A DNA stretch of 32,000 nucleotides from an uncultured Candidatus Nitrosopumilus sp. (GCA_905616385.1 CAJQSS010000004.1:8185-40184); one strand, 5' to 3'; numbered from the stretch's first letter, positions 4,634-21,072 are shown. Notes: a model not told the origin generated them from the sequence alone. Program-made: numbers and translations.

Positions 4634-5803
4634 ATGAAATTTCTTGATATCTCTTTAGGTTCTGAATTAAATGAACTTAAAAGATTTGAAAGTTTGAAAC
4701 AGGAAGAACGAAAGATAGTTTTTTATTCAGAAAATAAGAATTCGGTGTTCATCTTTGAATCTTTAATTAATGAATTAGTTAATGTACATAATTATGATAT
4801 TTGTTATGTAACTTCAAGTAGAGATGAACCACTCCTTAAAACTTCAAATAAAAAAATTAAGACTTTTAATATTGGAGAAGGTGTTGCAAGAACAAAATTT
4901 TTCTTAAATTTACAAGCAGATATTTTGATAATGACTATGCCAGATTTAGAAACATTTCATATTAAAAGATCAAAAATTTATCCCGTACATTATATTTACA
5001 TCTTTCATGCAATGGTAAGTACACATTTAGTATATCGTAAAAATGCATTTGATCATTTTGATTCAATTTTGTGTGTGGGAGCATATCAGATTGATGAAAT
5101 TAGAAGTACTGAAAAATTTTATAATTTAAAACCAAAAAAATTAATTCCTTGTGGTTATAGTCACTTAGATGATCTTATTAAAAAATATACAAAAAGAATT
5201 GATGATATTCCCAAAGATAAAAATCAAACTCAAATATTATTGGCACCATCATGGGGTAAAAATGGATTATTTGAAACAATAATTGAAGATCTAATAAAAA
5301 TACTGTTGGATTCTAAATACAAAGTTATCTTTCGACCTCACCCTATGACAATCAAATCTTCAAAAAAGAAACTATTATCAATTGAAAAAATATTTTCATC
5401 AAACCCAAATTTTAAGTTAGAATTAGATTTACCAAATTTTGATTCATTTTTATTTTCTGATGTAATGATTTCAGATTGGTCTGGTGTGGCATTAGAATTT
5501 GCTTTTGCTTTTGAAAAACCTGTTCTATATATTGATGTACCAAAAAAAATTCGTAATCCCGATTTTAAAGACATATCACAAACACCAATAGAAGTGAGTA
5601 TTAGAGAAAAAATTGGTAAAATTATTTCGCCATTAGAAATCAAGCATATTTCAACAGAAATTGAAATGCTAAAGCAAAAATCATCTGAAATTAAAAAAGA
5701 TATAAGAAACATAAGAGAAAAAGAAATTTTCAATATTGGAAATTCAGAAAAAAAGTCCGCCGAGTATATTATTGAATTGTTAAATCAATTAAAAAAAAAT
5801 TAA
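4634..5803 (+). CDS. CDP-glycerol/alditol-phosphate transferase-like protein (TagF/TarF family fold), candidate phosphonyl/phosphoryl transferase
   Basis: 389 aa. ILLAPSWGKNG resembles the TagF-family L(Y/L)APT(W/F)R block. VMISDWSGVALEFAFAFEKPVLYID resembles the family's (T/S)D(Y/W)SS..fdf....kP...y block. Call made by eye only. Confidence 0.5.
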   Translation: MKFLDISLGSELNELKRFESLKQEERKIVFYSENKNSVFIFESLINELVNVHNYDICYVTSSRDEPLLKTSNKKIKTFNIGEGVARTKFFLNLQADILIMTMPDLETFHIKRSKIYPVHYIYIFHAMVSTHLVYRKNAFDHFDSILCVGAYQIDEIRSTEKFYNLKPKKLIPCGYSHLDDLIKKYTKRIDDIPKDKNQTQILLAPSWGKNGLFETIIEDLIKILLDSKYKVIFRPHPMTIKSSKKKLLSIEKIFSSNPNFKLELDLPNFDSFLFSDVMISDWSGVALEFAFAFEKPVLYIDVPKKIRNPDFKDISQTPIEVSIREKIGKIISPLEIKHISTEIEMLKQKSSEIKKDIRNIREKEIFNIGNSEKKSAEYIIELLNQLKKN

Positions 5804-5867
5804 TCTATTGATAAGTGATTTTTAAATTTTATAAGAAAAAGTCATAAACAGTAGAAATTAGATTATT

Positions 5868-6626
5868 TTGTTGAGAGCAATTATTTTAGCAGCTGGAAAA
5901 GGAAGTAGATTAGAAGAATTAACAAAAAATATTTCAAAAGGCATGCTCAAATTATTTGGTAAAACATTGATCGAAAGACAAATAGAAATTTATCAAAAAT
6001 GTGGAATTGATGATATCACAATTGTAACTGGCTACAAAAGTGAAATGATAAATTTTTCAGGCATAAATTATGTAAAAAATCAAGATTATGCTACAACCAA
6101 CATGAATGAAAGTTTATTTTGTGCAAGTGAAAAATTATCAGATTCGGTAATTATTTCATATACTGATATAGTATTTGAGCAAAAAATGATTGAGCAAATG
6201 TTGCAGTTTTCAGGTGATATAGGAGTAGCTGTAAGTCTAAACTGGAAAAAAAATTACGATGGACGTACATTACACCCATTATCAGAAGCTGAAAATGTAT
6301 TGATTGAAAATGACAAAATAATTCAGATTAAAAAAAATATTTCAGAAGCATCATCAGATCAAAAAATTGGTGAATTTTTGGGAGTTATGAAATTATCTAA
6401 TGAAGGAGGAAAAATTCTATTACAGAAGTATTTAGAGTTAAAAGAAAATCATACGGAAACATTTCATATGGCTAAATCTTTCAAAGATGCATATATTACT
6501 GATATGTTACAAGAAATAATTGACTCTGGCTATGATGTTTCTCCTGTGGTAGTAGATGGGAATTGGTATGAAATTGATACTCCGCAGGATCTAGAAGAAG
6601 TAGAAAGATCTTCTATGTTTAATTAA
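5868..6626 (+). CDS. Sugar/phospho-alcohol nucleotidyltransferase (LicC/PntC-like cytidylyltransferase family)
   Basis: 252 aa. Has the N-terminal NTP-transferase signature AIILAAGKGSRL (G-x-G-(S/T)-R-L). The size and C-terminal W(Y)EIDTPQD block are typical of LicC-like enzymes. TTG start. The stop overlaps the stop of the convergent oxygenase gene by 4 nt. Confidence 0.7.
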   Translation: MLRAIILAAGKGSRLEELTKNISKGMLKLFGKTLIERQIEIYQKCGIDDITIVTGYKSEMINFSGINYVKNQDYATTNMNESLFCASEKLSDSVIISYTDIVFEQKMIEQMLQFSGDIGVAVSLNWKKNYDGRTLHPLSEAENVLIENDKIIQIKKNISEASSDQKIGEFLGVMKLSNEGGKILLQKYLELKENHTETFHMAKSFKDAYITDMLQEIIDSGYDVSPVVVDGNWYEIDTPQDLEEVERSSMFN

Positions 6627-7993
6627 TTATTTTTTGGATCAAACCACTGCAATGATTCATTTATTGCTCTTTTAACACTTCTTTTACCAACAAAGGATAA
6701 TTCTCTTTGTGAATCACCAGTAATCTTTCCACCTAGTCTTAATACCAAAAGTTTTCCAGATCCTCTAAAATTATGTTGTAAAAATGGTTTCAAGTATGCA
6801 GAATCTCCTGAATGAATAATTTCTTTAAATTGTTTATTATTATATGACCAGTTAAGGATTACATCTGTATTACCTATATTGTAGATATATTGATGTAAAC
6901 CTACTTCAAGATCTAATGATGAATCATCTTGAGATAACATATCAATTTCAAAAGCTTTTGAGTAGGGTAAGGTAGTTGACGATGCTAAATCATGGAATTT
7001 ATAATTTTTTGATTCTGGATAAAACCAATCTTTTCCTTCTTTATGACATTGTAAAATAACTTTATTTTCTATTTTTTCATTAGGACGTAAATCACGCGTA
7101 TTGATATTAAGTGACGTAGCTAAACTCTGAAGTTCAATTTCCGAAGGCATACTAACATTATTTTCAAAATCTTCAATTTTTCTTTCTGATACGTTACTTC
7201 TTTGAGAGAGCTCATTAATCGATATGCTTCCTATTTCACGATGGAATTTTAAAAGGGATGAAAATGTATGTTGTTTTGAAGAAAAGTCAAGAGCATATTC
7301 TTGACCTAGCTCTGAAGAAATTGCTGATAGTTCCTGTTGAACGTCACCAGTTAATTTATTTCCATAAGTTAATGCTAAAATCAGACCATTTTGTTTTGCG
7401 CCAGATCTTGTAGTAAAAGTATGAGGAGTGAAAGGCGTGATATACATAGAATCCCCAGTATTCATTACTGCAACTTGTTTTTTACCATCTGAATCAAGAT
7501 AATAGAAATTAACATCTCCAACGAAATAAGTAAACTGATGCATAAAGTGCCCTCTATTCCATTGAGCATTTGGATTCTTAGGATCATTATCATCAACATA
7601 ACATAATTCCATTATCCATTCAGGTCTAAAAGGAGCTAAACTGCTCATCACCGTATCTCTATATTCATAATATGGTTTACCTGCACGATCCATTATCCTA
7701 CTACTCTTTTCTGAATTTGTAGATGTCATGATTTTAACTCCAAAATTACAATCATCTCGAATTATGTAGAAATCACGTTCATTAATTGACCATATTTCTG
7801 CAGCACGAGTGACCATTTCAGGTGTTAATTTTCTCTCCCCTTTAATAATCAAAGATATCTCTGCAGTAGTTACATTCAATTCCTTTGCTGCATCCTCCGG
7901 TCTTCTTTTAAGATCATTTAAAATTCCTAAGAAATTGCTGCCAATACGTTTATTCTCATTTTTAATATTGAGAGTATTTTCTAAAGTTTCCAA
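6623..7993 (-). CDS. mpnS: Methylphosphonate synthase-type non-heme Fe(II) oxygenase (MpnS/HEPD family; tandem HTH-cupin/HTH-cupin architecture)
   Basis: 456 aa with an internal duplication. HTH-like segments occur at about 20-75 (PEDAAKELNVTTAEISLIIKGERKLT) and about 245-300 (SINELSQRSNVSERKIEDFENNVSMPS), each followed by a cupin barrel. The first cupin carries NRGHFMHQFTYF ... ITPFTPHTF, giving H149/Q153/H191. The gene sits immediately downstream of the Fe-ADH and opposite pepM/ppd. Confidence 0.8.
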   Translation of the reverse strand: METLENTLNIKNENKRIGSNFLGILNDLKRRPEDAAKELNVTTAEISLIIKGERKLTPEMVTRAAEIWSINERDFYIIRDDCNFGVKIMTSTNSEKSSRIMDRAGKPYYEYRDTVMSSLAPFRPEWIMELCYVDDNDPKNPNAQWNRGHFMHQFTYFVGDVNFYYLDSDGKKQVAVMNTGDSMYITPFTPHTFTTRSGAKQNGLILALTYGNKLTGDVQQELSAISSELGQEYALDFSSKQHTFSSLLKFHREIGSISINELSQRSNVSERKIEDFENNVSMPSEIELQSLATSLNINTRDLRPNEKIENKVILQCHKEGKDWFYPESKNYKFHDLASSTTLPYSKAFEIDMLSQDDSSLDLEVGLHQYIYNIGNTDVILNWSYNNKQFKEIIHSGDSAYLKPFLQHNFRGSGKLLVLRLGGKITGDSQRELSFVGKRSVKRAINESLQWFDPKNN

Positions 7994-8057
7994 TTAAGTT
8001 AATATGAAATTCATTTACTTAAATTGTTTTTGTTGATTTTCAATTAATACGTAATAC

Positions 8058-9005
8058 TTAATTCAATACATTGTTTGAATTAATTTTTTCAAGAAGTAAA
8101 ACTATGTCTTCATGTGAAACTAATTTAGGATTATTATCAAGATGTTTTTTATCAGTCAATATTAGATCAGCTGCATTATGAGAATTTGATTGTAATTTTA
8201 TAGATTCAAAATTTAGTTTTTTCACAATTTTAAGAAAACGTGAATAAAATTTTGAATCATTAAATTTATGAGCTACTGTTGTGGTAAAAGCTAAAGCATG
8301 ACCATGAGAAATACCTTCATTGGAAAAAACATATGATAAAGCATGTCCTAAAGTAGTGGAACAATTTCCAAAACCTAAACCTGAAAATAAAGAACCAAGA
8401 ACGATTTTTTCATTATCTTCATTTAATATTCCTGATTCTAAATAATCAAATGCTCTTTCACATAAGAATTTTGTATAAAAATTTCCAATTTTACTATCAA
8501 ACCCTTCACTACATTGAGCTAAAGCATCAATTGCAGAATTTTTAAAGACATTTTCTGGAGTATGAGAAATAAATTCTGAATCAACAATAGCAGTATTGGC
8601 AAAAAATTTATCATCATGAAAACTTTTCTTTTTTCCATTAATTTTTAATACTGCTATTCGTGTTACTTCACTACCACTTCCAAATGTAGTTGGTATCATA
8701 ATTTTAAATTTATTCATTTTTGCAGCACTAAATTTTGCTACATCAAGAGCACTTCCTCCACCTAAACCAATTATCGATGAAATTTTGGTGTTTGAAAATT
8801 CAGATAAAATTTTCTCGACCGTTTCAATCGAAGGATTATTTTCGACTTTATCAAAAAGAGAATAATTTTTTAATCTAAGATATTCGATCCATCCACGTTG
8901 TTTTGCTCCTTTAGATGTAATTAAAAGACAATTTTCAGGAAAATCATATTTTGATACAGAATGTTTTCCAAAAATAATTTTTGAAGGTTGTTTAATTATA
9001 TACAC
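8058..9005 (-). CDS. pdh: Iron-containing (group III) alcohol dehydrogenase; by context phosphonoacetaldehyde reductase producing 2-hydroxyethylphosphonate
   Basis: 315 aa. Has the GLGGGSALDVAKF dinucleotide/Fe-ADH signature and His-rich metal region LGHALSY...HGHALAF. It lies upstream of, and co-directional with, the MpnS-type gene and divergent from pepM. Confidence 0.75.
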   Translation of the reverse strand: MYIIKQPSKIIFGKHSVSKYDFPENCLLITSKGAKQRGWIEYLRLKNYSLFDKVENNPSIETVEKILSEFSNTKISSIIGLGGGSALDVAKFSAAKMNKFKIMIPTTFGSGSEVTRIAVLKINGKKKSFHDDKFFANTAIVDSEFISHTPENVFKNSAIDALAQCSEGFDSKIGNFYTKFLCERAFDYLESGILNEDNEKIVLGSLFSGLGFGNCSTTLGHALSYVFSNEGISHGHALAFTTTVAHKFNDSKFYSRFLKIVKKLNFESIKLQSNSHNAADLILTDKKHLDNNPKLVSHEDIVLLLEKINSNNVLN

Positions 9006-9067
9006 AAATATTGAACTAAAGTTAAAAATTAATAGTTAACTAGATGGGTATTCATGAATAACAGAAT
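9006..9067. promoter_or_regulatory. 62-bp divergent intergenic region, candidate bidirectional promoter for the pdh-mpnS and pepM-ppd operons
   Basis: This is the only non-coding DNA between the two divergent phosphonate operons. It contains an AT-rich TATA-like tract GTTAAAAATTAATAGTTAAC (9021-9040) with 5-bp inverted ends GTTAA/TTAAC, about 30-45 bp from both start codons. No transcript data are available. Confidence 0.3.
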
Positions 9068-9967
9068 ATGAAAACAAATGCAGAAATACTTAGAGAATTA
9101 CTTGACTCAAAACCTATTCTAAAGATTTGTGGTGCCTATGATGCAATGTCAGCCAAATTAGTTGAAAATGTGGGTTTTGATGCAGTATGGGCTGGAAGTT
9201 TTGCTATATCTGCAATTAATGCGGTTCCTGATGCAAGCATTTTAACTATGACAGAATTTTTTGATGCAGCTTCAAAGATGGTGAATGTTTGTAAAATTCC
9301 TGTTATTGCTGATTGTGACACAGGTTATGGTGGACCAAATAATGTAAGACATTTAGTCAAAAAATATGAAAGCGCAGGAATAGCGGCAATTAGTATAGAA
9401 GATAAAATTTTTCCTAAACAAAATAGTTTACTTGAAAATGGAACACATGCTCTTTTATCAGAAAAAGATTTTGTAGGAAAAATTATTGCTGCTAATGATG
9501 CAAAACAAAACAAAGAATTTATGATAATTGCAAGAGTTGAAGCATTGATAGCAGGTTTAGGAATGGATAACGCCATAAAACGAGCTAGAGCATATGAAAA
9601 AGCAGGTGCCGATGCAATATTAATTCACTCAAAAAAACATACTCCCGAAGAAATTTTTGAATTTGTTGATTCCTGGAATGGAAACTTACCAATTGTAGTA
9701 GTCCCTACCAATTATGGTACAGTAAAGATTGATGAATTAATTCAACATAAGATAAAAATGACTATTTATGCAAATCAAACTCTTAGAGCTGCTCACGCAG
9801 CTATCACCAGGACATTAAATGAAATGATAAAAGTTGAAAGTATGAGTGAAATAAAGGAAAAAATTTCAAGTATGGAAGATATTTTCCAATTACAAGAAAT
9901 GTATGATTTACAAACAAATGAAGCAGCATTAGAAGAAAAATACAAAAAATTAGGTTATGAGTCTTGA
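9068..9967 (+). CDS. pepM: Phosphoenolpyruvate phosphomutase (PEP mutase)
   Basis: 299 aa of the isocitrate lyase/PEP mutase superfamily (ADCDTGYGG). It carries the PepM-discriminating motif EDKxxxxxNS as EDKIFPKQNS, residues 111-120, nt 9398-9427. It is followed by phosphonopyruvate decarboxylase genes. Confidence 0.9.
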   Translation: MKTNAEILRELLDSKPILKICGAYDAMSAKLVENVGFDAVWAGSFAISAINAVPDASILTMTEFFDAASKMVNVCKIPVIADCDTGYGGPNNVRHLVKKYESAGIAAISIEDKIFPKQNSLLENGTHALLSEKDFVGKIIAANDAKQNKEFMIIARVEALIAGLGMDNAIKRARAYEKAGADAILIHSKKHTPEEIFEFVDSWNGNLPIVVVPTNYGTVKIDELIQHKIKMTIYANQTLRAAHAAITRTLNEMIKVESMSEIKEKISSMEDIFQLQEMYDLQTNEAALEEKYKKLGYES

Positions 9968-10449
9968 AAGAAAAAATTCAGAGAGATATTTTTGATTACT
10001 TTTCAAAAAATGGAATAGAGAATTTTATTGGTGTTCCAGATTCCACTATGAAATATTTTATAGAACAAGGTTTAGAACAAAAAAAGATTCTCATTACAAC
10101 CAAAGAAGAGGAAGCAATTGGAATAGGTGCAGGATTTTGTATATCAAAAAGCCCTACAATCATTTTTATGCAAAATGCAGGATTTGGAAATTCAATTAGT
10201 ACTATAACATCTCTCATTCAGCTTTATGAAATTCCTTTGATATTTCTAATAGGGTGGAGGGGATATAAAAAAAATGATGCGCCAGAACATTTAGGGTTTG
10301 GCAAAATTCAAAATCAGCTTTTGAAAATCTTGGATATTCCATTTAAGATTATGTCTGAAAATGAATGGAAATCAATATGTGATTGGTCATTACATAATTT
10401 GCATAAGAATAATTCTTGTGCACTAATAATTAAGAGGGAACATGAATAG
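9964..10449 (+). CDS. ppd: Phosphonopyruvate decarboxylase, alpha (pyrimidine-binding) subunit
   Basis: 161 aa. Has a TPP-enzyme N-terminal domain (FIGVPDS..., EEEAIGIGAG, MQNAGFGN), like the ComD/Ppd alpha half. The TTG start overlaps the pepM stop by 4 nt. Confidence 0.75.
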   Translation: MKEKIQRDIFDYFSKNGIENFIGVPDSTMKYFIEQGLEQKKILITTKEEEAIGIGAGFCISKSPTIIFMQNAGFGNSISTITSLIQLYEIPLIFLIGWRGYKKNDAPEHLGFGKIQNQLLKILDIPFKIMSENEWKSICDWSLHNLHKNNSCALIIKREHE

Positions 10450-11005
10450 AAAACAAGCCATTTCCACAATTGTTAAAGAAGTTGGAAACAATCCAATAAT
10501 TTCAGCTAATGGATTCATTAGTAGAGATTTGTATGAAACATGTGATAGAAACCAAAATTTTTACATGATTGGTTCAATGGGATTGGCATCTTCTATAGGT
10601 CTAGGAGTTGCACTAAAAAATCCAAAAATTAAGGTTTTTGTTTTTGATGGAGATGGAAACATATTGATGAATTTAGGATCATTAACAACAATTGGTAGTT
10701 TACAGCCAAAAAATCTAATTCATATCATTTTTGATAATAACAGTCATGAATCTACAGGAGGTCAACCTACACATTCTAACAAAATAAAATTATCGCGTAT
10801 TGGAAAATCTGTAAATTATAAAGTGTTCAACATAGTATCAAAAAAGGAATTAATATCTAATTTTAAAAAAATCATAAATCATAAAGGCCCTGTAATGATT
10901 GTTGTTAAAGTCAACAAAAGTAAGAAAGTTAGTAAGAGAGTTGAAATTGAACCAAAAAAAATTGTAGAAAGATTTACAAATTCATTAAAAATCCATTCAT
11001 CCTAA
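10442..11005 (+). CDS. ppd: Phosphonopyruvate decarboxylase, beta (diphosphate-binding) subunit
   Basis: 187 aa. Has the TPP-binding motif GDG-x26-NN (FDGDGNILMNLGSLTT...IIFDNNSHESTGGQ, G70-N100). The ATG overlaps the alpha-subunit stop by 8 nt. Confidence 0.8.
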   Translation: MNRKQAISTIVKEVGNNPIISANGFISRDLYETCDRNQNFYMIGSMGLASSIGLGVALKNPKIKVFVFDGDGNILMNLGSLTTIGSLQPKNLIHIIFDNNSHESTGGQPTHSNKIKLSRIGKSVNYKVFNIVSKKELISNFKKIINHKGPVMIVVKVNKSKKVSKRVEIEPKKIVERFTNSLKIHSS

Positions 11006-11132
11006 AATTTATTATAAATTGAAAAATCTATATATAAAAATAAAAATTGTGCCTATAATTCAGTTTTAGTTATTCATTTGAGATGATTTTCTGTTCCGAG
11101 TATTTATTATTGCTAATTATAAAATAAAAATT

Positions 11133-12710
11133 ATGAATATTTCCAAAACAAGTGTTTTTCATCCATTTTTGTTTGCTATTTTTCCAATAATTCATCTATA
11201 CTCAATTAATTTTATTGAAGTTCCTATGGATGATATAATTTTTCCAATATTTGTTTCAATTTTAGTTACTGGATCTTTATTATTTCTCTCACAAATAATT
11301 TTGAAAGATTGGACAAAATCATCTCTTATTGTTTCATTATTGTTAGTGTTGTCATTTTCTTATGGTCATATCTACCATTTGTTAAATGGAATGGCATTGG
11401 AAGATCTTGAAATTGTGAGACATAGATATCTTATGGTTGTATTTCTTGTTATATTCATCATAGGAACAATAGCCATTGTTAAAACACAAATTAAATTCAA
11501 TAATTTAAATAAAATAATTACTGCAATTGCAATTACTTTAATTCTAATTACAATGCCTAGTTTTGTATATGCTGGAATTTCTACATCAGAAATCAGTGAT
11601 GACATACAAGTACAAACAGTTGATGACATACAAGTACAAAATCCTAGAATAACATATGAATTAAAAAACATAGATAAATTGAATTCCACAGAAAAACCCG
11701 ATATCTATTACATTTTACTAGATGGATATGGGGGAACAGAGAGGATGAAACAAGATCTTAATTTTGATAATTACGAATTTCTTTCAGAATTAACGAATAG
11801 GGGATTTTTTGCTCCCGATTCGAGCTCAGGTAATTACCCCTCAACTAACTGGCAGATGACATCAATATTTAGCATGAATTATTTGCCATCTAAAGAAAAA
11901 GAACAATCAGACCCAGAGTATTATTCTTCGATTATTGAAATCTCTAAGGCAAATGAAGTTATGCGGAATTTTCATCATTTAAATTATGAAATTATTAATT
12001 TTCAACCCAAGGGATTTATCACACAACATTATTTGTTTAATGATCAAACTTTTTGTCAAAAAGAGCAATTAAAACAATCAAAATTTACTCAGATGTTACT
12101 TCGAACAACCATACTAAATTATTTGAATAATCAAATAGTAGTAAATGTATATAGAGAAAGTATTCTGTGTGGATTTTCAGAGATATCTAATTTGACGGAA
12201 AAAAATGATAAACCAATATTTGTGTATATGCACTTAGCAATACCCCATCCTCCATATGTATTTGGACCAAACGGAGAATATGTATTTGGAGGTAAGGTCC
12301 AAACTGAAGAAGGAAGTTTTGTTGATGAGGAAAAATACGTTGATTCAATAAAATTTGTAAATAAAAAAACTCTTGAAGTTATAGAAAATATTTTAAGAAA
12401 TAATGAAAACTCAATCATAATTATTCAATCAGATCATGGTTATGATTTTGGAATTAATTATGAAAATCCATCTGATATGAGTCTTAAGCAAAGATTTTCA
12501 ACTCTTAATGCAATATATTTTCCAGATCAAAATCAAGATATTCTATATGATGGAATTACACCGGTAAACACGTTTAGAATTGTTTTTAATGAATATTTTA
12601 ATGCCTCATATCCAATTTTAGATGATAGAATGTATTACCACCCCTACGGAGTAACTGGTATTTATACAGACGTAAAATTTCAAGATGTAACTGAAATAAT
12701 TTTAAATTAA
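11133..12710 (+). CDS. Polytopic membrane protein with C-terminal alkaline-phosphatase/sulfatase-superfamily domain (LtaS/EptA-like phosphotransferase architecture)
   Basis: 525 aa. The N-terminal 150 aa or so hold about five hydrophobic helices. The soluble domain has PDIYYILLDGYGG (metal-binding Asp), YPSTNWQMTSIFS (Ser/Thr nucleophile region) and IIIIQSDHGY (D-H metal pair). I saw no C/S-x-P-x-R formylglycine motif. Confidence 0.65.
   Translation: MNISKTSVFHPFLFAIFPIIHLYSINFIEVPMDDIIFPIFVSILVTGSLLFLSQIILKDWTKSSLIVSLLLVLSFSYGHIYHLLNGMALEDLEIVRHRYLMVVFLVIFIIGTIAIVKTQIKFNNLNKIITAIAITLILITMPSFVYAGISTSEISDDIQVQTVDDIQVQNPRITYELKNIDKLNSTEKPDIYYILLDGYGGTERMKQDLNFDNYEFLSELTNRGFFAPDSSSGNYPSTNWQMTSIFSMNYLPSKEKEQSDPEYYSSIIEISKANEVMRNFHHLNYEIINFQPKGFITQHYLFNDQTFCQKEQLKQSKFTQMLLRTTILNYLNNQIVVNVYRESILCGFSEISNLTEKNDKPIFVYMHLAIPHPPYVFGPNGEYVFGGKVQTEEGSFVDEEKYVDSIKFVNKKTLEVIENILRNNENSIIIIQSDHGYDFGINYENPSDMSLKQRFSTLNAIYFPDQNQDILYDGITPVNTFRIVFNEYFNASYPILDDRMYYHPYGVTGIYTDVKFQDVTEIILN
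11598..11640 (+). repeat. In-frame tandem duplication (period 24 nt, two copies sharing 19 identical nt) inside the sulfatase-like gene
   Basis: GATGACATACAAGTACAAA occurs at 11598-11616 and again at 11622-11640. It encodes DDIQVQ(TV)DDIQVQ(NP) in the linker between the membrane and catalytic domains. Confidence 0.9.
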
Positions 12711-12733
12711 AAATATTGTAATTTTTTATAAAA

Positions 12734-13207
12734 TTACATTTTTCCTTGTTGCCATGCTTGATTAAATTTTTTGATGGCTTCTTGATATGCTGTAATTGAT
12801 TCATCACCTGATGTTGTAAGAAATTTCTCCCATTGCCCATTAAATTTTTTTATTGATTCAATATTGGTTTCTTTGAAAATACTCTCAATCATTTTTGTTT
12901 GTTGTTTGATATATTCTGGACCAATTTCTTCCCAAGTATTTTCCCAACTTGTACTAACTTTTTTCAATAATTCTGAATCTGATTCTATTGCCTTTTGACA
13001 TGCATCATGATACGCCATTAATGTTTCATTTGTAGCCTTTTGCCATTGTGATAAGGATGCTTTCCATCCAGTTAATGCAGAATTATACTCTTTCCATGCT
13101 TTTTCAAATTCTGGTTTTTTTGTAGATGTTTTACTTTGTTTTTTTGGCTTAGAACTTGCTTTTTTTACTACTTTTTTTTTAATTTTAGATTTGTTTTTGA
13201 CAGCCAT
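12734..13207 (-). CDS. Hypothetical protein with a Lys-rich N-terminal tail and a Trp-rich helical body
   Basis: 157 aa. The N-terminus is KNKSKIKKKVVKKASSKPKKQSKTSTKK. Repeated W-containing helical segments follow (AWKEYNSALTGWKASLSQWQKA, SWENTWEEI, GQWEKF, QAWQQG). No recognisable catalytic motif. Confidence 0.5.
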   Translation of the reverse strand: MAVKNKSKIKKKVVKKASSKPKKQSKTSTKKPEFEKAWKEYNSALTGWKASLSQWQKATNETLMAYHDACQKAIESDSELLKKVSTSWENTWEEIGPEYIKQQTKMIESIFKETNIESIKKFNGQWEKFLTTSGDESITAYQEAIKKFNQAWQQGKM

Positions 13208-13525
13208 GTTTTTAGGTTTAATCTAATAGAAATTAAACTTTTTAATTATTTTGAGATTAAAAATTTCTTAATTTTTGTCAAAATTTTGATGCTTTAGAAA
13301 AGGTTGGAATGTGTGTTTCATCTTTATTTTTAAATAACTTGTAATGATTTTTACATAAATTCCTGGTTTCTTTAAAACTGATTTTTACAGTTTGGATAGC
13401 TTTTTCTTTACATTCTGAAATACTACATTGCAATATTGTAAATAATTGATATTTCCTAATAAAACTTTGAAATTATATAATTACCACTACTAACTTTTTT
13501 ATGATTGTAGTATATTGCAAAAATT

Positions 13526-13735
13526 ATGGATGATGATGAAAAAGGCAAAGAATTTTTAAAATTAATTGATGATCAAAATACTGTTCAATGGAATATTGTT
13601 GCAAAATTATCTTCTTTGGTTAAAGTAGAATGGAATTCTATCGAATTAAAAACTGAACTTGAAACTTTAGTTAAAGATCATTATAAAATTACTAAAGACC
13701 TTAACAGTTTAGATGATAATAATAGTATTTTATAA
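13526..13735 (+). CDS. Small acidic hypothetical protein (69 aa)
   Basis: ATG-initiated ORF in an otherwise empty region. Plausible helical composition and no motif. Its stop overlaps the ctaB stop convergently by 6 nt. Coding status is uncertain. Confidence 0.3.
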   Translation: MDDDEKGKEFLKLIDDQNTVQWNIVAKLSSLVKVEWNSIELKTELETLVKDHYKITKDLNSLDDNNSIL

Positions 13736-16359: not shown

Positions 16360-17442
16360 GTGAAAATAAGAACAAAATCCTCTATTCGGAGACATATTCC
16401 TGTTATTCATGGTGGAAAAATCCCTGTAAAAAATAGCGATCATAATATCATTGATTTTAGTTCTAATATCACTCCTCTTGGAATTCCTAATTCTGTAAAA
16501 TTAATAATTAAAAAAAATTTAGATAAAATTCAATTTTACCCTGACCCAAAATCTGAAAATGTAATTTCAAGTCTAGAAAAATATACGCATTTATCAAAAT
16601 CAAATATTATTGTTGGAAATGGTGCAATTGAAATTCTTTATAATTTTTGTTTTGCATTTTTATCTAAAACAACTAAAGTGCTAATTCACGTACCGACATT
16701 TGAAGAATACGAAGCTGCAGTAAAACTAAGTAATTGTAAAATTTCATATTTTAAATCCTTAAATTTGTCTACAAACATTGATTCATTTATTTCACAAATT
16801 CCAAAAAGTGGATGTATTTTTCTTTGTAATCCTAATAATCCTACAGGGGAATTATTATCAAAAAAAGAATTATTATCTATAATTATTGTAGCAAAAAAAT
16901 TAAAAACTATTGTATTTATTGATGAATGCTTTATTGAATTAGTTCCAAAATCTAATGAATCTGTTATATCTTATGTAAAAAAATATGATAATTTATTCAT
17001 TTTAAGATCTTTAACAAAATCATTTGGTTTACCTGGATTAAGAATTGGATATGCATGTGGTTCTAAAGAAATAATTAAAATTTTACAAAAAATTAAAATT
17101 CCTTGGAGTGTAAATTCTTTAGCACAAGATGCAGCAAATGCTGTGATTAAAAATACCTCTCATCTTAAAAAATCTAATATAATAATTAAAAAAGAATTAA
17201 AGTATTTAGAAGATAATATTTCTATTTTAAATGGATTTGAATGTATTTTTTCATCTACTAATTTTATTTTAATTAAAATAAAATATGATTCTACAAAGTT
17301 ACAAACAAAATTATTAAAAAATAAAATTTTAATCCGTGATTGTAAAAATTTTAGAGGTTTAGATAATCATTACATTCGAATTGCAGTAAAATCTCACAAA
17401 GATAATGTAAAATTAGTAAAAGCATTGGAGAAAATAAAATGA
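16360..17442 (+). CDS. cobD: L-threonine-O-3-phosphate decarboxylase (class I/II aminotransferase fold), cobalamin aminopropanol arm
   Basis: 360 aa. The N-terminal block VIHGGKI...IIDFSSNITPLGIP is typical of CobD. Also has FLCNPNNPTG and the PLP-lysine block LRSLTKSFGLPGLRIGY. GTG start. It heads an operon with cobQ/cbiB/cobS/cobY. Confidence 0.75.
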   Translation: MKIRTKSSIRRHIPVIHGGKIPVKNSDHNIIDFSSNITPLGIPNSVKLIIKKNLDKIQFYPDPKSENVISSLEKYTHLSKSNIIVGNGAIEILYNFCFAFLSKTTKVLIHVPTFEEYEAAVKLSNCKISYFKSLNLSTNIDSFISQIPKSGCIFLCNPNNPTGELLSKKELLSIIIVAKKLKTIVFIDECFIELVPKSNESVISYVKKYDNLFILRSLTKSFGLPGLRIGYACGSKEIIKILQKIKIPWSVNSLAQDAANAVIKNTSHLKKSNIIIKKELKYLEDNISILNGFECIFSSTNFILIKIKYDSTKLQTKLLKNKILIRDCKNFRGLDNHYIRIAVKSHKDNVKLVKALEKIK

Positions 17443-18278
17443 AATCATTAATGATTCAGGGAACTTCCTCTGGTGCTGGTAAAACAACCTTGGTTGCAGC
17501 CTTGTGTAGAATTTTTTCAGATAAGGGTTACAGTGTTGCTCCGTTTAAATCTCAAAATATGTCTAATTTTGCTTATATTACGCCTGATTTTGAAATTTCT
17601 CGTGCTCAAGCAATTCAAGCTTTTGGTGCACGTTGTAATATTACGCCTGATTTGAATCCTATTTTATTAAAACCAGTTGGAAATTATTCTAGTATTGTAT
17701 ATTTGAACGGTAAGCGTTTCAAAAAAATGCATGCTCAAGAATATTATGAAAAATTTGTTAATATTGAAGGTATGAAAATAGCTACAAAATCACTGAAGAC
17801 ATTACAGAAAAATTTTGATCTGGTAATTATGGAGGGTGCAGGTTCTCCTGCAGAAATTAATTTACAAAAATATGATATTGCAAATATGAAAATTGCTAAA
17901 AAAGCAAATGCAGATGTATTATTGGTAACTGATATTGATAAAGGAGGATCTTTTGCAAGTTTAGTTGGAACCATGAATTTAATTGATAAAAAATATCAAA
18001 AACTTGTCAAGGGGTTTATTTTTAATAAATTTCGTGGTGATATTGATGTATTAAAACCTGGATTTAAAAAATTAAAAAATATTACAAAAATTCCTACTTT
18101 TGGAACTATTCCATTAATATCATTAAATTTACCTGAGGAGGATTCTCTTAATGTAAAACCTAAACATATTACTTGGAGTAAAAAAAATATTTCAAAAATT
18201 GATGATGAATTAAATAAATTATCAAAAATTGTTAAATCAAATATTGATATTAATTCAATTGAGAAAATGTTACAATGA
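17439..18278 (+). CDS. cobQ: Cobyric acid synthase-like ATPase domain (CobQ/CbiP N-terminal half only; no glutamine amidotransferase domain)
   Basis: 279 aa. CobQ-typical blocks: IQGTSSGAGKTTLVAALCRIF..GY.VAPFKSQNMSN, RAQAIQA, NPILLKP, EGAGSPAEINL, DIDKGGSFASLVGT, FNKFRGD and LPEEDS. The ORF ends about 40 aa after the EDS block, where full-length CobQ continues into a roughly 200-aa GATase domain. Confidence 0.7.
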   Translation: MKSLMIQGTSSGAGKTTLVAALCRIFSDKGYSVAPFKSQNMSNFAYITPDFEISRAQAIQAFGARCNITPDLNPILLKPVGNYSSIVYLNGKRFKKMHAQEYYEKFVNIEGMKIATKSLKTLQKNFDLVIMEGAGSPAEINLQKYDIANMKIAKKANADVLLVTDIDKGGSFASLVGTMNLIDKKYQKLVKGFIFNKFRGDIDVLKPGFKKLKNITKIPTFGTIPLISLNLPEEDSLNVKPKHITWSKKNISKIDDELNKLSKIVKSNIDINSIEKMLQ

Positions 18279-19246
18279 TTCTTGAATCTATATCTATTAT
18301 TGGTTTTGCAATTTTAATTGATTTAATATTTGGAGATCCAAAAAATCGTTATCACCCAACAGCTTGGATAGGAACATTGATTGCAAAATTTACTCCTGTT
18401 GTGAAACACCAAAATTCTACAATTGAAAAAATTGGTGGTATTTTAATTATAATAATTATTTCTAGTATTGTTATTTTATTATTATCAAGTCTTAATTTTG
18501 CAATATCTTTAATTTCTATTGATTACGTTTCACTAATTGCTTCTATACTTATTGGGGCATTATTGCTTAAAACAACTATTGCTATTCGTGGAATGGAAAA
18601 ACATGCAATTAGCGTATTGGAATCTCTGGAGAGTAATAATCTTGATATGGCAAGAAATTATTTATCTATGATTGTAAAGCGAAATACCACAAATTTGGAT
18701 AAAAATCATGTACTTTCAGGCGTATTAGAAAGTATTAGTGAGAATACTGTTGATGGTATAACTGGACCAATGTTTTATTATGCTTTTTTTGGTTTATGGG
18801 GAGCGTTTGTGTATCGAGTTATCAATACAGCAGATTCAATGATTGGGTACAAAAATGATATTTTTAAAAATTTAGGATGGTTTACTGCTACCTGTGATAC
18901 AATCTTAAATTATATTCCATCTAGATTAACAGGATTAATGATGATTATTTCAGCAGCTATTTTACAAAATAATTGGAAAAATTCTTACAAAATAATGATT
19001 AGAGATGGCAAAACAACTGAAAGTCCTAATGCTGGATATCCTATGGCAGCATTAGCTGGTGCTTTAGAAACTAAATTTGAAAAAATAAATCATTATAAAT
19101 TAGGTGATGGTGAAATTGTTCTTACAAAACAACATGTCATTTCTGCAATTAAGATTATGAAATTAACATCAATTCTTTTCTTTGGAATTATAATAATTCC
19201 AATAATTTTTATTTTATCTTTTATTGGATGGTGGCTTTATGTTTAA
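18275..19246 (+). CDS. cbiB: Adenosylcobinamide-phosphate synthase
   Basis: 323 aa membrane protein. Has the CbiB blocks GDP...YHPTAWIG, VDGITGPMFYY, INTADSMIGYK and ESPNAGYPMAALAGAL. The ATGA start overlaps the cobQ stop. Confidence 0.85.
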   Translation: MILESISIIGFAILIDLIFGDPKNRYHPTAWIGTLIAKFTPVVKHQNSTIEKIGGILIIIIISSIVILLLSSLNFAISLISIDYVSLIASILIGALLLKTTIAIRGMEKHAISVLESLESNNLDMARNYLSMIVKRNTTNLDKNHVLSGVLESISENTVDGITGPMFYYAFFGLWGAFVYRVINTADSMIGYKNDIFKNLGWFTATCDTILNYIPSRLTGLMMIISAAILQNNWKNSYKIMIRDGKTTESPNAGYPMAALAGALETKFEKINHYKLGDGEIVLTKQHVISAIKIMKLTSILFFGIIIIPIIFILSFIGWWLYV

Positions 19247-19964
19247 AGAAATTGGATCTATTTTTTCTTTTTTAACAATTTTACCATCATCAAATTCTAC
19301 ATTAGATGATACTGCAAAATACATGTATCTTTTTCCTATTGTTGGAATTATAATTGGAATTTTAGTTGGTGGTTTTGGTTTTGGTTTATCTTTTCTTTTG
19401 GATCCAATTATAGTTAGTTTCCTTGTAGTTACATCAATTGTAATTATAACTGGAATTCATCATGCAGATGGTTTAGCAGATTTTGTTGATGGTCTTATGG
19501 TAAAAGGTAGTAAGGAGAAAAAACTTGATGCAATGAAAGATCTTTCTACAGGTTCTGCAGGAATAGTTGCTATTGTGCTGTATCTTATTGGATTAGTTGT
19601 TACAATTTCTCTTACAACTGGATTTGATTTGTTTAAGGCAATATTGATTAGTGAAATTTTAGCAAAATTTTCAATGGTTTTATTAGCAAGTTTAGGAAAT
19701 TCAGCATCATTAGGCTCAAACTCTCCTTTTATGAAAATTATGAAAGATAAGAAAAAATTGATGGCAGCATTTGTAATCATGATTATTCCTATTGCTTTAC
19801 TTGGTGAAACTACTGGACTTGTAATGCTTGGTGTGACTGTAACTGTAACATTGTTTATTTTGTTTATATCTAATCGTAGTTTTGGTGGTATAACTGGTGA
19901 TGTTCTTGGTTCAACTAACGAATTAACTCGTTTAGCATCATTGATGGTGTTTGTATCAATATGA
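19239..19964 (+). CDS. cobS: Adenosylcobinamide-GDP ribazoletransferase (cobalamin 5'-phosphate synthase)
   Basis: Polytopic membrane protein with the CobS blocks FSFLTILP and GIHHADGLADFVDGL. I prefer the ATG at 19239 (MFKEIGS..., 8-nt overlap with the cbiB stop) over the track's start at 19224. Confidence 0.8.
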   Translation: MFKEIGSIFSFLTILPSSNSTLDDTAKYMYLFPIVGIIIGILVGGFGFGLSFLLDPIIVSFLVVTSIVIITGIHHADGLADFVDGLMVKGSKEKKLDAMKDLSTGSAGIVAIVLYLIGLVVTISLTTGFDLFKAILISEILAKFSMVLLASLGNSASLGSNSPFMKIMKDKKKLMAAFVIMIIPIALLGETTGLVMLGVTVTVTLFILFISNRSFGGITGDVLGSTNELTRLASLMVFVSI

Positions 19965-20545
19965 TTAGTTTGGTAATGGCAGGTGGTAAAGGTGCACGTA
20001 TGAATTTAGATCATGAAAAATTATTGCTCAAATATAAAAAACCAATCATCCTTCATGTAGTTGATTCTTTAAAAGATTCAAATTGCTTTTCAAAAATTTT
20101 AGCCCTAACTAGTTCTAATTCCCCAAATACAAAAATATTATTACAAGAAAATAATATTGAAATTTTTGATACTGATGGAATTGGATATGTTGAAGATTTA
20201 ACTTTAGTACTTCAATCTACAAATGATTCTGTTTTAGTTACTTCAGGTGATTTACCATTATTGGATAAAGAAATAATACGACAAATTGTTAATCATTATG
20301 ATCCTAAACAAATTTGGACAAGTATACTTGTCACTAACAAATTTTTAGCAACACTTGGATTAGAGTCTGATTATTCTATACATTACAGTAATCAAAAATG
20401 TAATTATACTGGAATTTCTTTAATTAATACAAGTAAAATTAATTCATCTGAAGATATAGATGAAAATTATATTATAATTGATGATAAACGTATTGCATTT
20501 AATTTAAACACAAAGCGAGATTATGAATTACTCGGCACTACCTGA
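19961..20545 (+). CDS. cobY: Archaeal adenosylcobinamide-phosphate guanylyltransferase (NTP-transferase fold)
   Basis: 194 aa. Has the MobA/CobY-like N-terminal MAGGKGARM signature. It is the last gene of the cob nucleotide-loop operon. The ATGA start overlaps the cobS stop. Confidence 0.6.
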   Translation: MISLVMAGGKGARMNLDHEKLLLKYKKPIILHVVDSLKDSNCFSKILALTSSNSPNTKILLQENNIEIFDTDGIGYVEDLTLVLQSTNDSVLVTSGDLPLLDKEIIRQIVNHYDPKQIWTSILVTNKFLATLGLESDYSIHYSNQKCNYTGISLINTSKINSSEDIDENYIIIDDKRIAFNLNTKRDYELLGTT

Positions 20546-20725
20546 AATTTTGCCGTTTATTTTGGCTTTAGAACCTGTTGGTTCTGAAATTGTATTACCA
20601 CAAGAATTACATGCAATAACTGTAGATGCATGAGAATATACTATTTGTAATTCACCGCACTCTTCACAATTAACCTTTTGAAACTTACTTGATGGTTTTG
20701 GAATTTCGATGTGACTTTTCTTCAT
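20528..20725 (-). CDS. rps27e: 30S ribosomal protein S27e
   Basis: 65 aa. Has a C4 zinc ribbon VNCEECGELQ...IACNSCGNTI with eS27-typical spacing and flanks (SKFQKVNC..C). Confidence 0.9.
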   Translation of the reverse strand: MKKSHIEIPKPSSKFQKVNCEECGELQIVYSHASTVIACNSCGNTISEPTGSKAKINGKISGSAE

Positions 20726-21003
20726 GCTGCTACCAACTCAAATTTCTTAATTCTAACACCTTTTTTATTGTATTTCTTTTTACATACAGTACATGTCATA
20801 AGTGGAGTAACTTTCTTTGTAACTTTGGCTGGTTTTGCAAGTTTTGGGAATTTTTGTCCACCATAACCTCTTTTACGTTCAGCGTGACGACGTTCACCTG
20901 CTGCAGAACCACGTCTTTTTCCAGCTTTGTAAATGGAGACCTTTTGTTCAGTATGTGTATTACATTTTGCACAATACTTTCTGATCACCTTTGGAATGTT
21001 CAT
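20722..21003 (-). CDS. rpl44e: 50S ribosomal protein L44e (eL42)
   Basis: 93 aa. MNIPKVIRKYCAKCNTHTEQKVSIYKAGK...RKRGYGGQ..P...K.AK.TKK is the eL42 pattern. A second Cys pair is CTVCKKK. Overlaps rps27e by 4 nt. Confidence 0.9.
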   Translation of the reverse strand: MNIPKVIRKYCAKCNTHTEQKVSIYKAGKRRGSAAGERRHAERKRGYGGQKFPKLAKPAKVTKKVTPLMTCTVCKKKYNKKGVRIKKFELVAA

Positions 21004-21072
21004 ATCAACAAAACCTCTTCAACCGTAATTTAAGCATTGAACCTATAATAGTCATAAATTTCATTTATTCTT

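What the first reader, a model, noticed from the sequence alone, without database searches (positions are those of the whole stretch)
7421..7549. His/Gln/His metal-ligand pattern and Phe/Ile pocket residues point to MpnS rather than HEPD
In the first cupin the sequence is NRGH(149)FMHQ(153)FTYFVGDVNF(163)...SMYI(185)TPFTPH(191)TF. The usual carboxylate ligand of the 2-His-1-carboxylate triad appears to be replaced by Gln, four residues after the first His.

As I recall the MpnS structural work (Born and colleagues, 2017), MpnS binds Fe(II) through H148/Q152/H190. A Phe (162) and an Ile (184) fix the Gln conformation and separate methylphosphonate synthases from 2-His-1-Gln HEPDs. This ORF has the same residues at positions shifted by +1. 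R103/Y111/N146 also sit where substrate-binding residues would be expected. Both the residue numbering and its significance are from memory.
Basis: partly seen in the sequence, partly recalled or inferred. Interest (0 to 1): 0.7.

Follow-up and report, generated by a model that had tools for sequence, protein, structure and literature searches.

The report
Methylphosphonate synthase gene in marine archaeon
The gene encodes an ordinary, already recognised methylphosphonate synthase, the iron enzyme that makes the ocean's methane precursor methylphosphonate. It sits in its usual phosphonate-biosynthesis gene cluster in a marine ammonia-oxidising archaeon.

Summary

- **The gene.** Window 7421-7549 lies on the minus strand and encodes residues 149-191 of a 456-aa ORF (6623-7993).
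- **Match to the solved enzyme.** The protein aligns without gaps to Nitrosopumilus maritimus MpnS (PDB 6B9S/6B9T; E=1.7e-196, 61% identity), offset by exactly +1. H149/Q153/H191 therefore match the published ligands H148/Q152/H190. F163/I185 match the published MpnS markers F162/I184.
- **Contrast with HEPD.** The solved 2-His-1-Gln HEPD (6B9R) has Tyr and Gly in those two columns. The query matches it far less well (E=8.8e-82, 36% identity).
- **Wider family.** Among 131 cluster representatives with residues at all five positions, 101 carry H-Q-F-I-H and 25 carry H-Q-Y-G-H. In a neighbour-joining tree the query is sister to N. maritimus MpnS, inside a clade with no Y/G members.
- **Gene context.** The neighbouring genes encode PEP mutase, a split phosphonopyruvate decarboxylase and an Fe-alcohol dehydrogenase, which together supply the substrate 2-HEP. 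A nucleotidyltransferase and candidate transferases lie alongside.
- **Source.** The window is from a Nitrosopumilaceae archaeon. The identical protein occurs on dozens of public metagenome contigs, and IMG already names cluster members "methylphosphonate synthase".

Verdict: already known, low interest. Catalytic activity itself was not tested.

The parts
6623..7993 (-). mpnS: methylphosphonate synthase ORF, 456 aa, TTG start directly after an in-frame TAA
   Evidence: Searches give the ORF; phmmer against PDB finds 6b9s MpnS at E=1.7e-196, gapless. Foldseek top hits are 6b9t/6b9s; cluster members are named 'methylphosphonate synthase' by JGI/IMG.
7421..7549 (-). It holds the Fe(II) ligands H149 (7547-7549), Q153 (7535-7537) and H191 (7421-7423), and the second-sphere residues F163 (7505-7507) and I185 (7439-7441).
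   Evidence: One search gives the coordinates. Searches give the alignment to 6b9s and 6b9r. One search gives the published residue criteria. Searches show conservation across homologues.
7556..7687 (-). Substrate (2-HEP phosphonate) binding residues R103 (7685-7687), Y111 (7661-7663) and N146 (7556-7558)
   Evidence: They align to R102/Y110/N145 of 6b9s. They are near-invariant in 150 family representatives. Their role in binding comes from my recollection of the HEPD/MpnS literature. PDB entry 3rzz, 'HEPD Y98F mutant', shows that the Tyr has been studied.
8058..9005 (-). pdh: Fe-dependent alcohol dehydrogenase, the phosphonoacetaldehyde reductase that makes 2-HEP
   Evidence: TIGR03405 Phn_Fe-ADH at E=1.5e-25, below the model's cutoff. 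Pfam Fe-ADH and ADH_Fe_C; 64-69% identical to the equivalent gene in Nitrosopumilus mpn clusters.
9068..9967 (+). ppm: phosphoenolpyruvate mutase
   Evidence: TIGR02320 at E=1.5e-91 (306 bits, against a cutoff of 319.55); active-site motif EDK-x5-NS present at residue 111; identical protein named phosphoenolpyruvate phosphomutase.
9964..11005 (+). ppd: phosphonopyruvate decarboxylase, split into alpha (9964-10449) and beta (10442-11005) subunits
   Evidence: the two ORFs match the N-terminal half (profile positions 1-153) and the C-terminal half (171-357) of TIGR03297, at E=1e-30 and 2.2e-54.
5868..6626 (+). Nucleotidyltransferase (NTP_transf_3 / NTP_transferase). It is convergent with mpnS and overlaps its 3' end by 4 bp. 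Its inferred role is to activate the phosphonate as a nucleotide conjugate.
   Evidence: Searches give the family matches. MpnS/HEPD homologues elsewhere are fused to an N-terminal NTP_transf_3 domain, which links the two functions. The role itself is inferred.
4634..5803 (+). TagF-like CDP-glycerol glycerophosphotransferase-family protein, a candidate for transferring the phosphonate onto a polymer (inferred)
   Evidence: PF04464 at E=1.5e-11; present in every contig that carries the identical MpnS and extends that far; no counterpart within the 8 kb fetched on either side of mpnS in the Nitrosopumilus loci examined.
11133..12710 (+). 525-aa membrane protein with about 5 N-terminal hydrophobic segments followed by a sulfatase/alkaline-phosphatase-superfamily domain (LtaS/EptA-like architecture). 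Candidate extracytoplasmic transferase (inferred).
   Evidence: PF00884 at E=1.7e-10, residues 213-481; hydropathy segments at residues 12-151.

Best explanation
ORF 6623-7993 (minus strand) encodes a functional methylphosphonate synthase (MpnS, EC 1.13.11.73) of a marine Nitrosopumilaceae archaeon.

Pathway. PEP mutase (9068-9967) converts PEP to phosphonopyruvate. The two-subunit decarboxylase (9964-11005) makes phosphonoacetaldehyde. The Fe-alcohol dehydrogenase (8058-9005) reduces that to 2-hydroxyethylphosphonate (2-HEP).

MpnS reaction. MpnS binds one Fe(II) in its N-terminal cupin through H149, Q153 and H191. It binds 2-HEP with R103, Y111 and N146, probably with K29 and W450 from the partner subunit. 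It uses O2 to cleave the C1-C2 bond.

Role of F163 and I185. As I recall the published model (Born et al. 2017), F163 and I185 pack against Q153 and hold it on the iron. The formate intermediate then stays positioned to donate its hydrogen atom to the methylphosphonate radical. The products are methylphosphonate plus CO2/bicarbonate, rather than the hydroxymethylphosphonate plus formate that HEPD makes.

Downstream. The adjacent nucleotidyltransferase and the TagF-like and LtaS-like proteins probably activate methylphosphonate and attach it to a cell-surface polymer.

What is shown and what is inferred. Shown here: homology, residue identity at every diagnostic position, phylogenetic placement, and gene context. 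Inferred: catalytic activity, the chemical mechanism, and the fate of the product.
For: - Residues and coordinates are verified.
- The alignment to N. maritimus MpnS 6B9S is gapless, with E=1.7e-196 and 61% identity. The S. albus HEPD 6B9R gives E=8.8e-82 and 36% identity.
- The published MpnS criteria H148/Q152/F162/I-V184/H190 are all met at +1.
- 6B9R has Y and G at the two gatekeeper columns. Tyr-Gly is described as diagnostic of class II HEPD.
- All 120 closest database homologues carry H/Q/F/I(V)/H. So do all 37 genome loci with residues at those columns, down to 39% identity, including Pelagibacteraceae.
- Among the 131 of 150 representatives at 50% clustering that have residues at all five positions, 101 are H-Q-F-I-H and 25 are H-Q-Y-G-H. 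The two columns therefore do discriminate. The best F/I hit scores 626 bits and the best Y/G hit 354 bits.
- In the NJ tree the query is sister to 6B9S, in a 17-leaf clade with no Y/G member. The sister clade holds 6B9R and 17 Y/G sequences.
- The AF2 model (pLDDT 75.8) matches 6B9T/6B9S best (E~1e-64, TM ~0.7), then 6B9R, then PhpD.
- The context ppm, ppd-alpha/beta, pdh and nucleotidyltransferase is present, and the Ppm motif EDK-x5-NS is intact.
- The identical protein is found on at least 23 public contigs that share the same cluster, and IMG names cluster members methylphosphonate synthase.
- The pathway and reaction are stated in PMC12619172.
Against: - There is no biochemical evidence for this protein. 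It is 61% identical, not identical, to the characterised enzyme.
- The F/I rule rests on a small number of characterised enzymes, and I could not read the primary paper (Born 2017 is not held).
No atom-level check of the Fe-site geometry or of F163/I185 packing on Q153 was possible.
- Curated profile libraries give no support. NCBIfam has no matching family, and Pfam reports only an HTH_3 hit.
Confidence: 0.93

Rival explanations
1. The protein is a class II (2-His-1-Gln) hydroxyethylphosphonate dioxygenase. It would convert 2-HEP to hydroxymethylphosphonate plus formate.
For: It has the same fold and the same H/Q/H triad. R/Y/N/K/W substrate residues are conserved in both enzyme types. 6B9R is a strong hit at E=8.8e-82.
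Against: The gatekeeper columns are F163/I185, not Y/G. Identity is 36% to HEPD and 61% to MpnS. The query falls in a clade without Y/G sequences. Thaumarchaeal clusters of this kind are the type source of MpnS.
Confidence: 0.03
2. It is an MpnS-fold oxygenase that acts on a different substrate or gives a different product, for example a nucleotide- or sugar-linked 2-HEP. The divergent tailoring genes of this cluster variant would fit such a difference.
For: The cluster genes are only 58-67% identical to those of Nitrosopumilus MAGs, while the flanking IF-2B-family, FeS-assembly/PqqD and SDR genes are 85-91% identical. The gene order and the tailoring genes also differ. Homologues fused to nucleotidyltransferase exist.
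Against: Every residue known or thought to contact 2-HEP or the iron is identical to the N. maritimus enzyme. The alignment has no insertions or deletions over 440 residues. The pdh gene that makes free 2-HEP is adjacent.
Confidence: 0.03
3. It is an XRE-family helix-turn-helix transcriptional regulator, as several public annotations say.
For: Pfam's only hit is HTH_3, at E=4e-9 over residues 255-302. Sources name relatives 'XRE family transcriptional regulator' or 'helix-turn-helix domain-containing protein'.
Against: The HTH-like segment is part of the helical domain that precedes each cupin in the solved enzymes. The whole 440-residue protein aligns to crystallised MpnS/HEPD. The metal and substrate residues are near-invariant. 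NCBIfam simply lacks an MpnS model.
Confidence: 0.005

Closest known systems
Nitrosopumilus maritimus SCM1 methylphosphonate synthase (MPnS; PDB 6B9S apo, 6B9T with Fe(II) and 2-HEP)
   Same: Nearly the same length (456 aa here, 457 for the deposited chain). The alignment over 440 residues is gapless, with 61% identity. The residues are identical at the Fe ligands (H/Q/H), the gatekeepers (F/I) and the substrate-binding positions (K, R, Y, N, W). It comes from the same archaeal family. It is likewise associated with ppm, a split ppd, pdh and a nucleotidyltransferase.
   Different: 39% of residues differ. The gene order within the cluster differs. The Nitrosopumilus-type locus examined (L008) has two soluble sulfatase-family proteins flanking mpnS, plus NeuB, epimerase and methyltransferase genes. 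The window instead has a TagF-like transferase and a membrane-anchored sulfatase-superfamily protein.
Streptomyces albus class II HEPD (2-His-1-Gln; PDB 6B9R)
   Same: Same bicupin fold, the same H/Q/H triad, and the same R/Y/N/K/W residues.
   Different: It has Tyr and Gly where the query has F163 and I185. Identity is 36%. Its product is hydroxymethylphosphonate plus formate (product from the literature).
Streptomyces viridochromogenes PhpD, class I HEPD (2-His-1-Glu; PDB 3G7D, 3GBF)
   Same: The overall bicupin architecture is detectable by fold comparison (Foldseek E~1e-23).
   Different: Only about 16% identity, and no hit in the PDB sequence search at E<=0.01. Its carboxylate ligand lies in the column of I184, and it has Ala at the Gln column (hepD row of Lockwood's table).
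HppE, (S)-2-hydroxypropylphosphonate epoxidase (PDB 1ZZ6, 5U55)
   Same: It has a helical domain plus one cupin, is iron-dependent, and acts on a hydroxyalkylphosphonate.
   Different: It is a single-cupin protein of about 190-198 aa. It matches only residues 66-211 of the query, at E=3e-8. Its chemistry is different (epoxidation).

Membership tests
Methylphosphonate synthase (MpnS) | Full-length homology to the crystallised enzyme (two helical-domain-plus-cupin repeats) | tested here: met
   E=1.7e-196, gapless, query 16-455 = chain 15-454; the best Foldseek matches are 6b9t/6b9s.
Methylphosphonate synthase (MpnS) | Fe(II) ligands His148, Gln152, His190 (2-His-1-Gln) | tested here: met
   H149/Q153/H191 align to them. 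The criteria come from PMC9381506 Table S2.
Methylphosphonate synthase (MpnS) | Second-sphere pair Phe162 and Ile/Val184, which separates MpnS from class II HEPD | tested here: met
   F163/I185. The two columns carry Y/G in 6B9R and in 25 other representatives, so they do discriminate.
Methylphosphonate synthase (MpnS) | 2-HEP-binding residues (R102, Y110, N145; K28' and W449' from the partner subunit) | tested here: met
   R103, Y111, N146, K29 and W450 are present and near-invariant. The roles of the residues are from memory, not verified in a paper held here.
Methylphosphonate synthase (MpnS) | Phylogenetic placement with characterised MpnS rather than HEPD | tested here: met
   the query is sister to 6B9S in a clade of 16 F/I plus 1 L/F sequences. 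6B9R lies in the sister Y/G clade. This is an NJ tree without bootstrap support.
Methylphosphonate synthase (MpnS) | Genomic association with the 2-HEP supply genes ppm, ppd and pdh | tested here: met
   The same arrangement is found on all public contigs that carry the identical protein.
Methylphosphonate synthase (MpnS) | Catalysis: 2-HEP + O2 -> methylphosphonate + CO2/HCO3- | not testable with these tools
   This needs purified enzyme and 31P-NMR or LC-MS.
Class II HEPD (2-His-1-Gln) | Tyr/Gly motif at the columns of MpnS F162/I184 | tested here: not met
   The query has F/I. The motif is described in PMC8976061 and PMC9381506 Table S2.
Class I HEPD (2-His-1-Glu) | Glu ligand at the column of I184, with Ala at the column of Q152 | tested here: not met
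   The query has I185 and Q153. There is no PDB sequence hit to PhpD at E<=0.01.
XRE-family transcriptional regulator | An HTH DNA-binding domain as the functional core of the protein | tested here: not met
   HTH_3 matches only residues 255-302. The remaining ~400 residues, that segment included, align to the solved oxygenases.

The most novel reading that the evidence does not exclude
The enzyme is ordinary, but this cluster may be a distinct variant of the thaumarchaeal methylphosphonate island. It occupies the same chromosomal site as in other Nitrosopumilus genomes, next to the IF-2B-family, FeS-assembly/PqqD and SDR genes, which are 85-91% identical. Its core genes are only 58-67% identical. 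Its gene order is rearranged. Its tailoring set is different: a TagF-like phosphotransferase and an LtaS/EptA-like membrane protein replace the two soluble sulfatase-family proteins and the NeuB/epimerase genes. On this reading, methylphosphonate is attached to a different acceptor, for example a teichoic-acid-like polymer or a lipid. The cell-surface phosphonoglycan would then vary between strains, as O-antigen islands do.
Probability: 0.25. Interest if true: 0.35.

Novelty: already known. Interest (0 to 1): 0.12.

Why it matters
MpnS makes methylphosphonate. Other marine microbes break methylphosphonate down with C-P lyase and release methane, which is the leading explanation for methane supersaturation in oxygenated seawater. 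Thaumarchaeal MpnS was the founding example, and published surveys already use the H/Q/F/I/H signature to count mpnS in ocean metagenomes. This gene therefore adds no new biology.

It has some practical value for annotation. Neither NCBIfam nor Pfam has an MpnS model. Public records label close relatives as "hypothetical", "helix-turn-helix domain-containing" or "XRE family transcriptional regulator".

The divergence and rearrangement of the cluster relative to its well-conserved flanks is a minor lead on strain-level variation of phosphonate-decorated surface polymers.

Tried and rejected
- I tried to read the primary paper, Born et al. 2017 (DOI and PMC5901744). It is not held. The residue criteria therefore come from secondary sources and from memory.
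- A literature search for Gln152/Phe162/Ile184 returned only irrelevant papers. PMC8942020 had nothing on MpnS residues.
- NCBIfam gave no family for the ORF. Pfam gave only HTH_3. I considered the regulator annotation and rejected it.
- tRNA and Rfam scans of the window found nothing, so they did not help with taxonomy. Taxonomy came from exact-sequence cluster look-ups instead.
- A tblastn search against phage genomes found no MpnS relative. A viral or auxiliary-gene origin is therefore not supported.
- I wanted to measure the Fe-site geometry and the F163/I185-Q153 contacts in the AF2 model. The coordinates are not exposed to the scripting environment. The global TM-score of about 0.7 reflects the low-confidence linker (residues 211-233) and C-terminal tail (421-456) of the monomer model.
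- I checked whether the C-terminal cupin might hold a second metal site. H367 is conserved, but Q368 and H407 are variable across the family, so no second triad is supported.

Full report
**1. The observation**

The finding's coordinates, 7421-7549, lie on the minus strand inside ORF 6623-7993. This ORF is 456 aa, with a TTG start immediately after an in-frame TAA. The range covers residues 149-191.

The residues and their codons are as follows:

| Residue | Codon |
|---|---|
| H149 | 7547-7549 |
| Q153 | 7535-7537 |
| F163 | 7505-7507 |
| I185 | 7439-7441 |
| H191 | 7421-7423 |
| R103 | 7685-7687 |
| Y111 | 7661-7663 |
| N146 | 7556-7558 |

**2. What it is**

*Sequence search of solved structures.*
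- The best match is N. maritimus methylphosphonate synthase (6B9S/6B9T), at E=1.7e-196 and 656 bits.
- The second hit is the Streptomyces albus HEPD crystallised in the same study (6B9R), at E=8.8e-82.
- After that come only the HppE epoxidases, at about 1e-8 to 1e-5.
- Identity is 61% to MpnS and 36% to the HEPD.

*Diagnostic columns.* In the same alignment 6B9R carries Tyr and Gly where the query and 6B9S carry Phe and Ile. All three share H/Q/H and R/Y/N.

*Published criteria.* I could not obtain the primary structural paper, but two papers held in the library state the rule.
- Lockwood et al. 2022 (PMC9381506, Supplementary Table S2) list the residues used to verify genes. For mpnS these are H148, Q152, F162, I/V184 and H190. 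For hepD they are H148, A/Q152, I/Y162, E/G184 and H190.
- PMC8976061 calls a Tyr-Gly motif "diagnostic of class II HEPD".

In class I HEPD the carboxylate sits in the column of I184, and the query has Ile there.

**3. Whether the signature means anything in the wider family**

- All 120 closest database homologues (62-99% identity) have H/Q/F/I/H, with a single Val at the Ile position.
- All 37 genome loci with residues at those columns, down to 39% identity, have the same five residues. They include Nitrosopumilus, Nitrosopelagicus, Nitrosotenuis, DPANN-type archaea, Myxococcota, gammaproteobacteria and Pelagibacteraceae.
- I ran an exhaustive HMMER search of 1.84 billion cluster representatives. 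It found 507 relatives, and I aligned the best 150. Of the 131 with residues at all five positions, 101 are H-Q-F-I-H and 25 are H-Q-Y-G-H. A handful have other pairs (L/F, V/M, H/T, A/G and others).
- The H/Q/H, R/Y/N, K29 and W450 columns are almost invariant. The two gatekeeper columns do vary, so they carry information.
- The best F/I representative scores 626 bits (62% identity). The best Y/G representative scores 354 bits (41%).
- In a neighbour-joining tree of 104 near-full-length sequences, the query is sister to 6B9S. It lies inside a 17-leaf clade of 16 F/I plus 1 L/F sequences. The sister clade contains 6B9R and 17 Y/G sequences. The tree has no bootstrap support and should be read as indicative only.

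**4. Structure**

An AlphaFold2 model was built from a 50-sequence alignment. It has mean pLDDT 75.8. The low-confidence parts are the inter-repeat linker (211-233) and the C-terminal tail (421-456), a segment I recall packing against the partner subunit in the crystal dimer.

Foldseek against the PDB ranks the hits in this order:
- 6B9T/6B9S first (E about 1e-64, TM about 0.7);
- then 6B9R (1e-44);
- then class I HEPD PhpD (1e-23);
- then unrelated bicupins.

The "structure-guided" check therefore rests on the gapless sequence alignment to the crystal structures. At 61% identity that is sufficient to establish which residues correspond.

**5. Context**

*Core pathway genes.*
- The Fe-alcohol dehydrogenase pdh is at 8058-9005, on the minus strand directly upstream of mpnS.
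- PEP mutase is at 9068-9967. It matches TIGR02320 at E=1.5e-91 and has an intact EDK-x5-NS motif.
- A split phosphonopyruvate decarboxylase is at 9964-10449 and 10442-11005. The two ORFs match the two halves of TIGR03297.

This is the complete PEP-to-2-HEP-to-methylphosphonate pathway as described in PMC12619172.

*Likely tailoring genes.*
- A nucleotidyltransferase (5868-6626) converges on mpnS and overlaps it by 4 bp.
- A TagF-like glycerophosphotransferase-family gene is at 4634-5803.
- A 525-aa protein at 11133-12710 has about five N-terminal hydrophobic segments and a sulfatase-superfamily domain.

Lockwood et al. note that such neighbours suggest synthesis of methylphosphonate esters on polymers. 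In other organisms MpnS/HEPD homologues are fused to an N-terminal NTP_transf_3 domain, or in one case to an Fe-ADH. This independently ties the nucleotidyltransferase to the pathway. The roles of these neighbours are inferred.

**6. Source organism and prior knowledge**

- The window encodes a thermosome, cobalamin nucleotide-loop genes, and GMP synthase/IMPDH, among others. No tRNA or Rfam match was found.
- Six window proteins, looked up by exact sequence, are all present on one NCBI contig of 132,969 bp. Their cluster mates at 90% identity or more are named Nitrosopumilus sp., Ca. Nitrosomarinus catalina and N. piranensis. The window (29% G+C) is therefore from a Nitrosopumilaceae ammonia-oxidising archaeon.
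- The identical MpnS protein is indexed in 35 blocks of the public collection. It was read on 23 contigs, and the six displayed share the same cluster. JGI/IMG names several cluster members "methylphosphonate synthase".
- Other sources label relatives "hypothetical", "helix-turn-helix domain-containing" or "XRE family transcriptional regulator". This is because NCBIfam has no model for the family and Pfam sees only HTH_3.

**7. Mechanism**

*Shown here:* homology, identity at every diagnostic residue, phylogenetic placement, and the pathway context.

*Inferred from established knowledge of the family (partly from memory):*
- Fe(II) is bound by H149, Q153 and H191.
- 2-HEP chelates the iron and is held by R103, Y111 and N146, with K29' and W450' from the partner subunit.
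- O2 activation leads to C1-C2 cleavage, giving a methylphosphonate radical and formate.
- F163 and I185 pin Q153 on the iron. The radical therefore abstracts the formate hydrogen, giving methylphosphonate plus CO2, instead of rebounding with Fe-OH to give hydroxymethylphosphonate.

**8. Rivals**

- Class II HEPD is rejected on the gatekeeper residues, the identity values and the tree.
- A different substrate is unlikely, given the unchanged pocket and the adjacent pdh.
- A transcriptional regulator is rejected because the whole protein aligns to the oxygenases.

**9. Verdict**

Its family, its signature and its distribution are already published. Novelty: already known. Interest: low.

The only mildly new element is outside the finding. 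The cluster sits at the same chromosomal site as in other Nitrosopumilus genomes, where the flanking IF-2B-family, FeS-assembly/PqqD and SDR genes are 85-91% identical. The cluster genes themselves are only 58-67% identical. The cluster is also rearranged and carries different tailoring genes. It looks like a variable surface-polymer island.

Noticed in passing
window 4634-12710, compared with L007/L008 (Nitrosopumilus sp. chromosomes) and L001: The phosphonate cluster lies at the same chromosomal site as in other Nitrosopumilus genomes. The flanking IF-2B-family, FeS-assembly/PqqD and SDR genes are 85-91% identical, but the ppm/ppd/pdh/mpnS genes are only 58-67% identical, and the nucleotidyltransferase is about 38-45% identical. 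The gene order is also rearranged. This looks like a hypervariable island.
   Followed up: partly
window 4634-5803 and 11133-12710; L008 6510-7895 and 9347-10474: The tailoring genes differ. The window has a TagF-like Glyphos_transf protein and a protein with about 5 TM segments plus a sulfatase-superfamily domain (LtaS/EptA-like). The Nitrosopumilus-type locus has two soluble Sulfatase+SGSH_C proteins around mpnS, plus NeuB, UDP-GlcNAc 2-epimerase, methyltransferase and polysaccharide deacetylase genes.
   Followed up: partly
window ~12710-13730; L041-L044: Some contigs carrying the identical MpnS diverge from the window just beyond the sulfatase-family gene. They have a 43-aa ORF followed by another gene, which is a Methyltransf_3 gene in L041 and is cut off or unassigned in L042-L044. 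The window and L040 have an unassigned 157-aa Lys-rich ORF (12734-13207) and UbiA at that point. The junction varies between strains.
   Followed up: no
proteins P0212, P0245, P0256, P0280, P0301, P0343 (and P0314, with only a weak match) (NTP_transf_3 fusions); P0300 (Fe-ADH fusion): MpnS/HEPD homologues of 590-950 aa in other organisms carry an N-terminal nucleotidyltransferase domain, or in one case an Fe-alcohol dehydrogenase domain. These are Rosetta-stone fusions that link the oxygenase to phosphonate activation and to 2-HEP supply.
   Followed up: partly
proteins P0222 (L/F), P0246 (H/T), P0300 and P0328 (V/M), P0274 (A/G), P0234 and P0290 (L/G), P0316 (Y/I): A few family representatives have gatekeeper pairs that are neither F/I nor Y/G. 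The published rule does not predict their product (MPn or HMP).
   Followed up: no
L001 (PAOU01000013.1, 'Dehalococcoidia bacterium SAT207') and L004/L026 ('Patescibacteria group bacterium CRAIB_MAG54'): The MpnS copies on L001 and L004 score alongside the thaumarchaeal ones (62-67% identity to the query; L026 holds only a 63%-identical partial copy). L001 also shares the window's cluster gene order. These short contigs are assigned to bacterial MAGs, so mis-binning or horizontal transfer is possible.
   Followed up: no
window 6623-7993; public annotations of relatives: There is an annotation gap. NCBIfam has no MpnS/HEPD model and Pfam reports only HTH_3. NCBI records call relatives 'hypothetical protein', 'helix-turn-helix domain-containing protein' or 'XRE family transcriptional regulator'.
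   Followed up: yes
window 16360-20545: A run of late cobalamin-assembly genes: a class I/II aminotransferase-family gene, a CbiA/CobQ-like gene, CobD/CbiB, CobS, and a MobA-like nucleotidyltransferase. A thermosome (22881-24503) and purine genes follow (adenine deaminase, GMP synthase, IMPDH). This is ordinary thaumarchaeal housekeeping content.
   Followed up: no
window 20546-21072 (ORF 20689-21033): A gap of about 530 bp between annotated genes holds only a Cys/Phe/Ser/Thr-rich 114-aa ORF with no family match, which is probably not a real gene. Nothing in Rfam matches there.
   Followed up: no
L040 15068-17214: On the 4x-coverage contig L040, the PGI/SIS and IF-2B genes that are intact in the window are broken into several short ORFs. 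These are most likely assembly or sequencing errors rather than pseudogenes.
   Followed up: no
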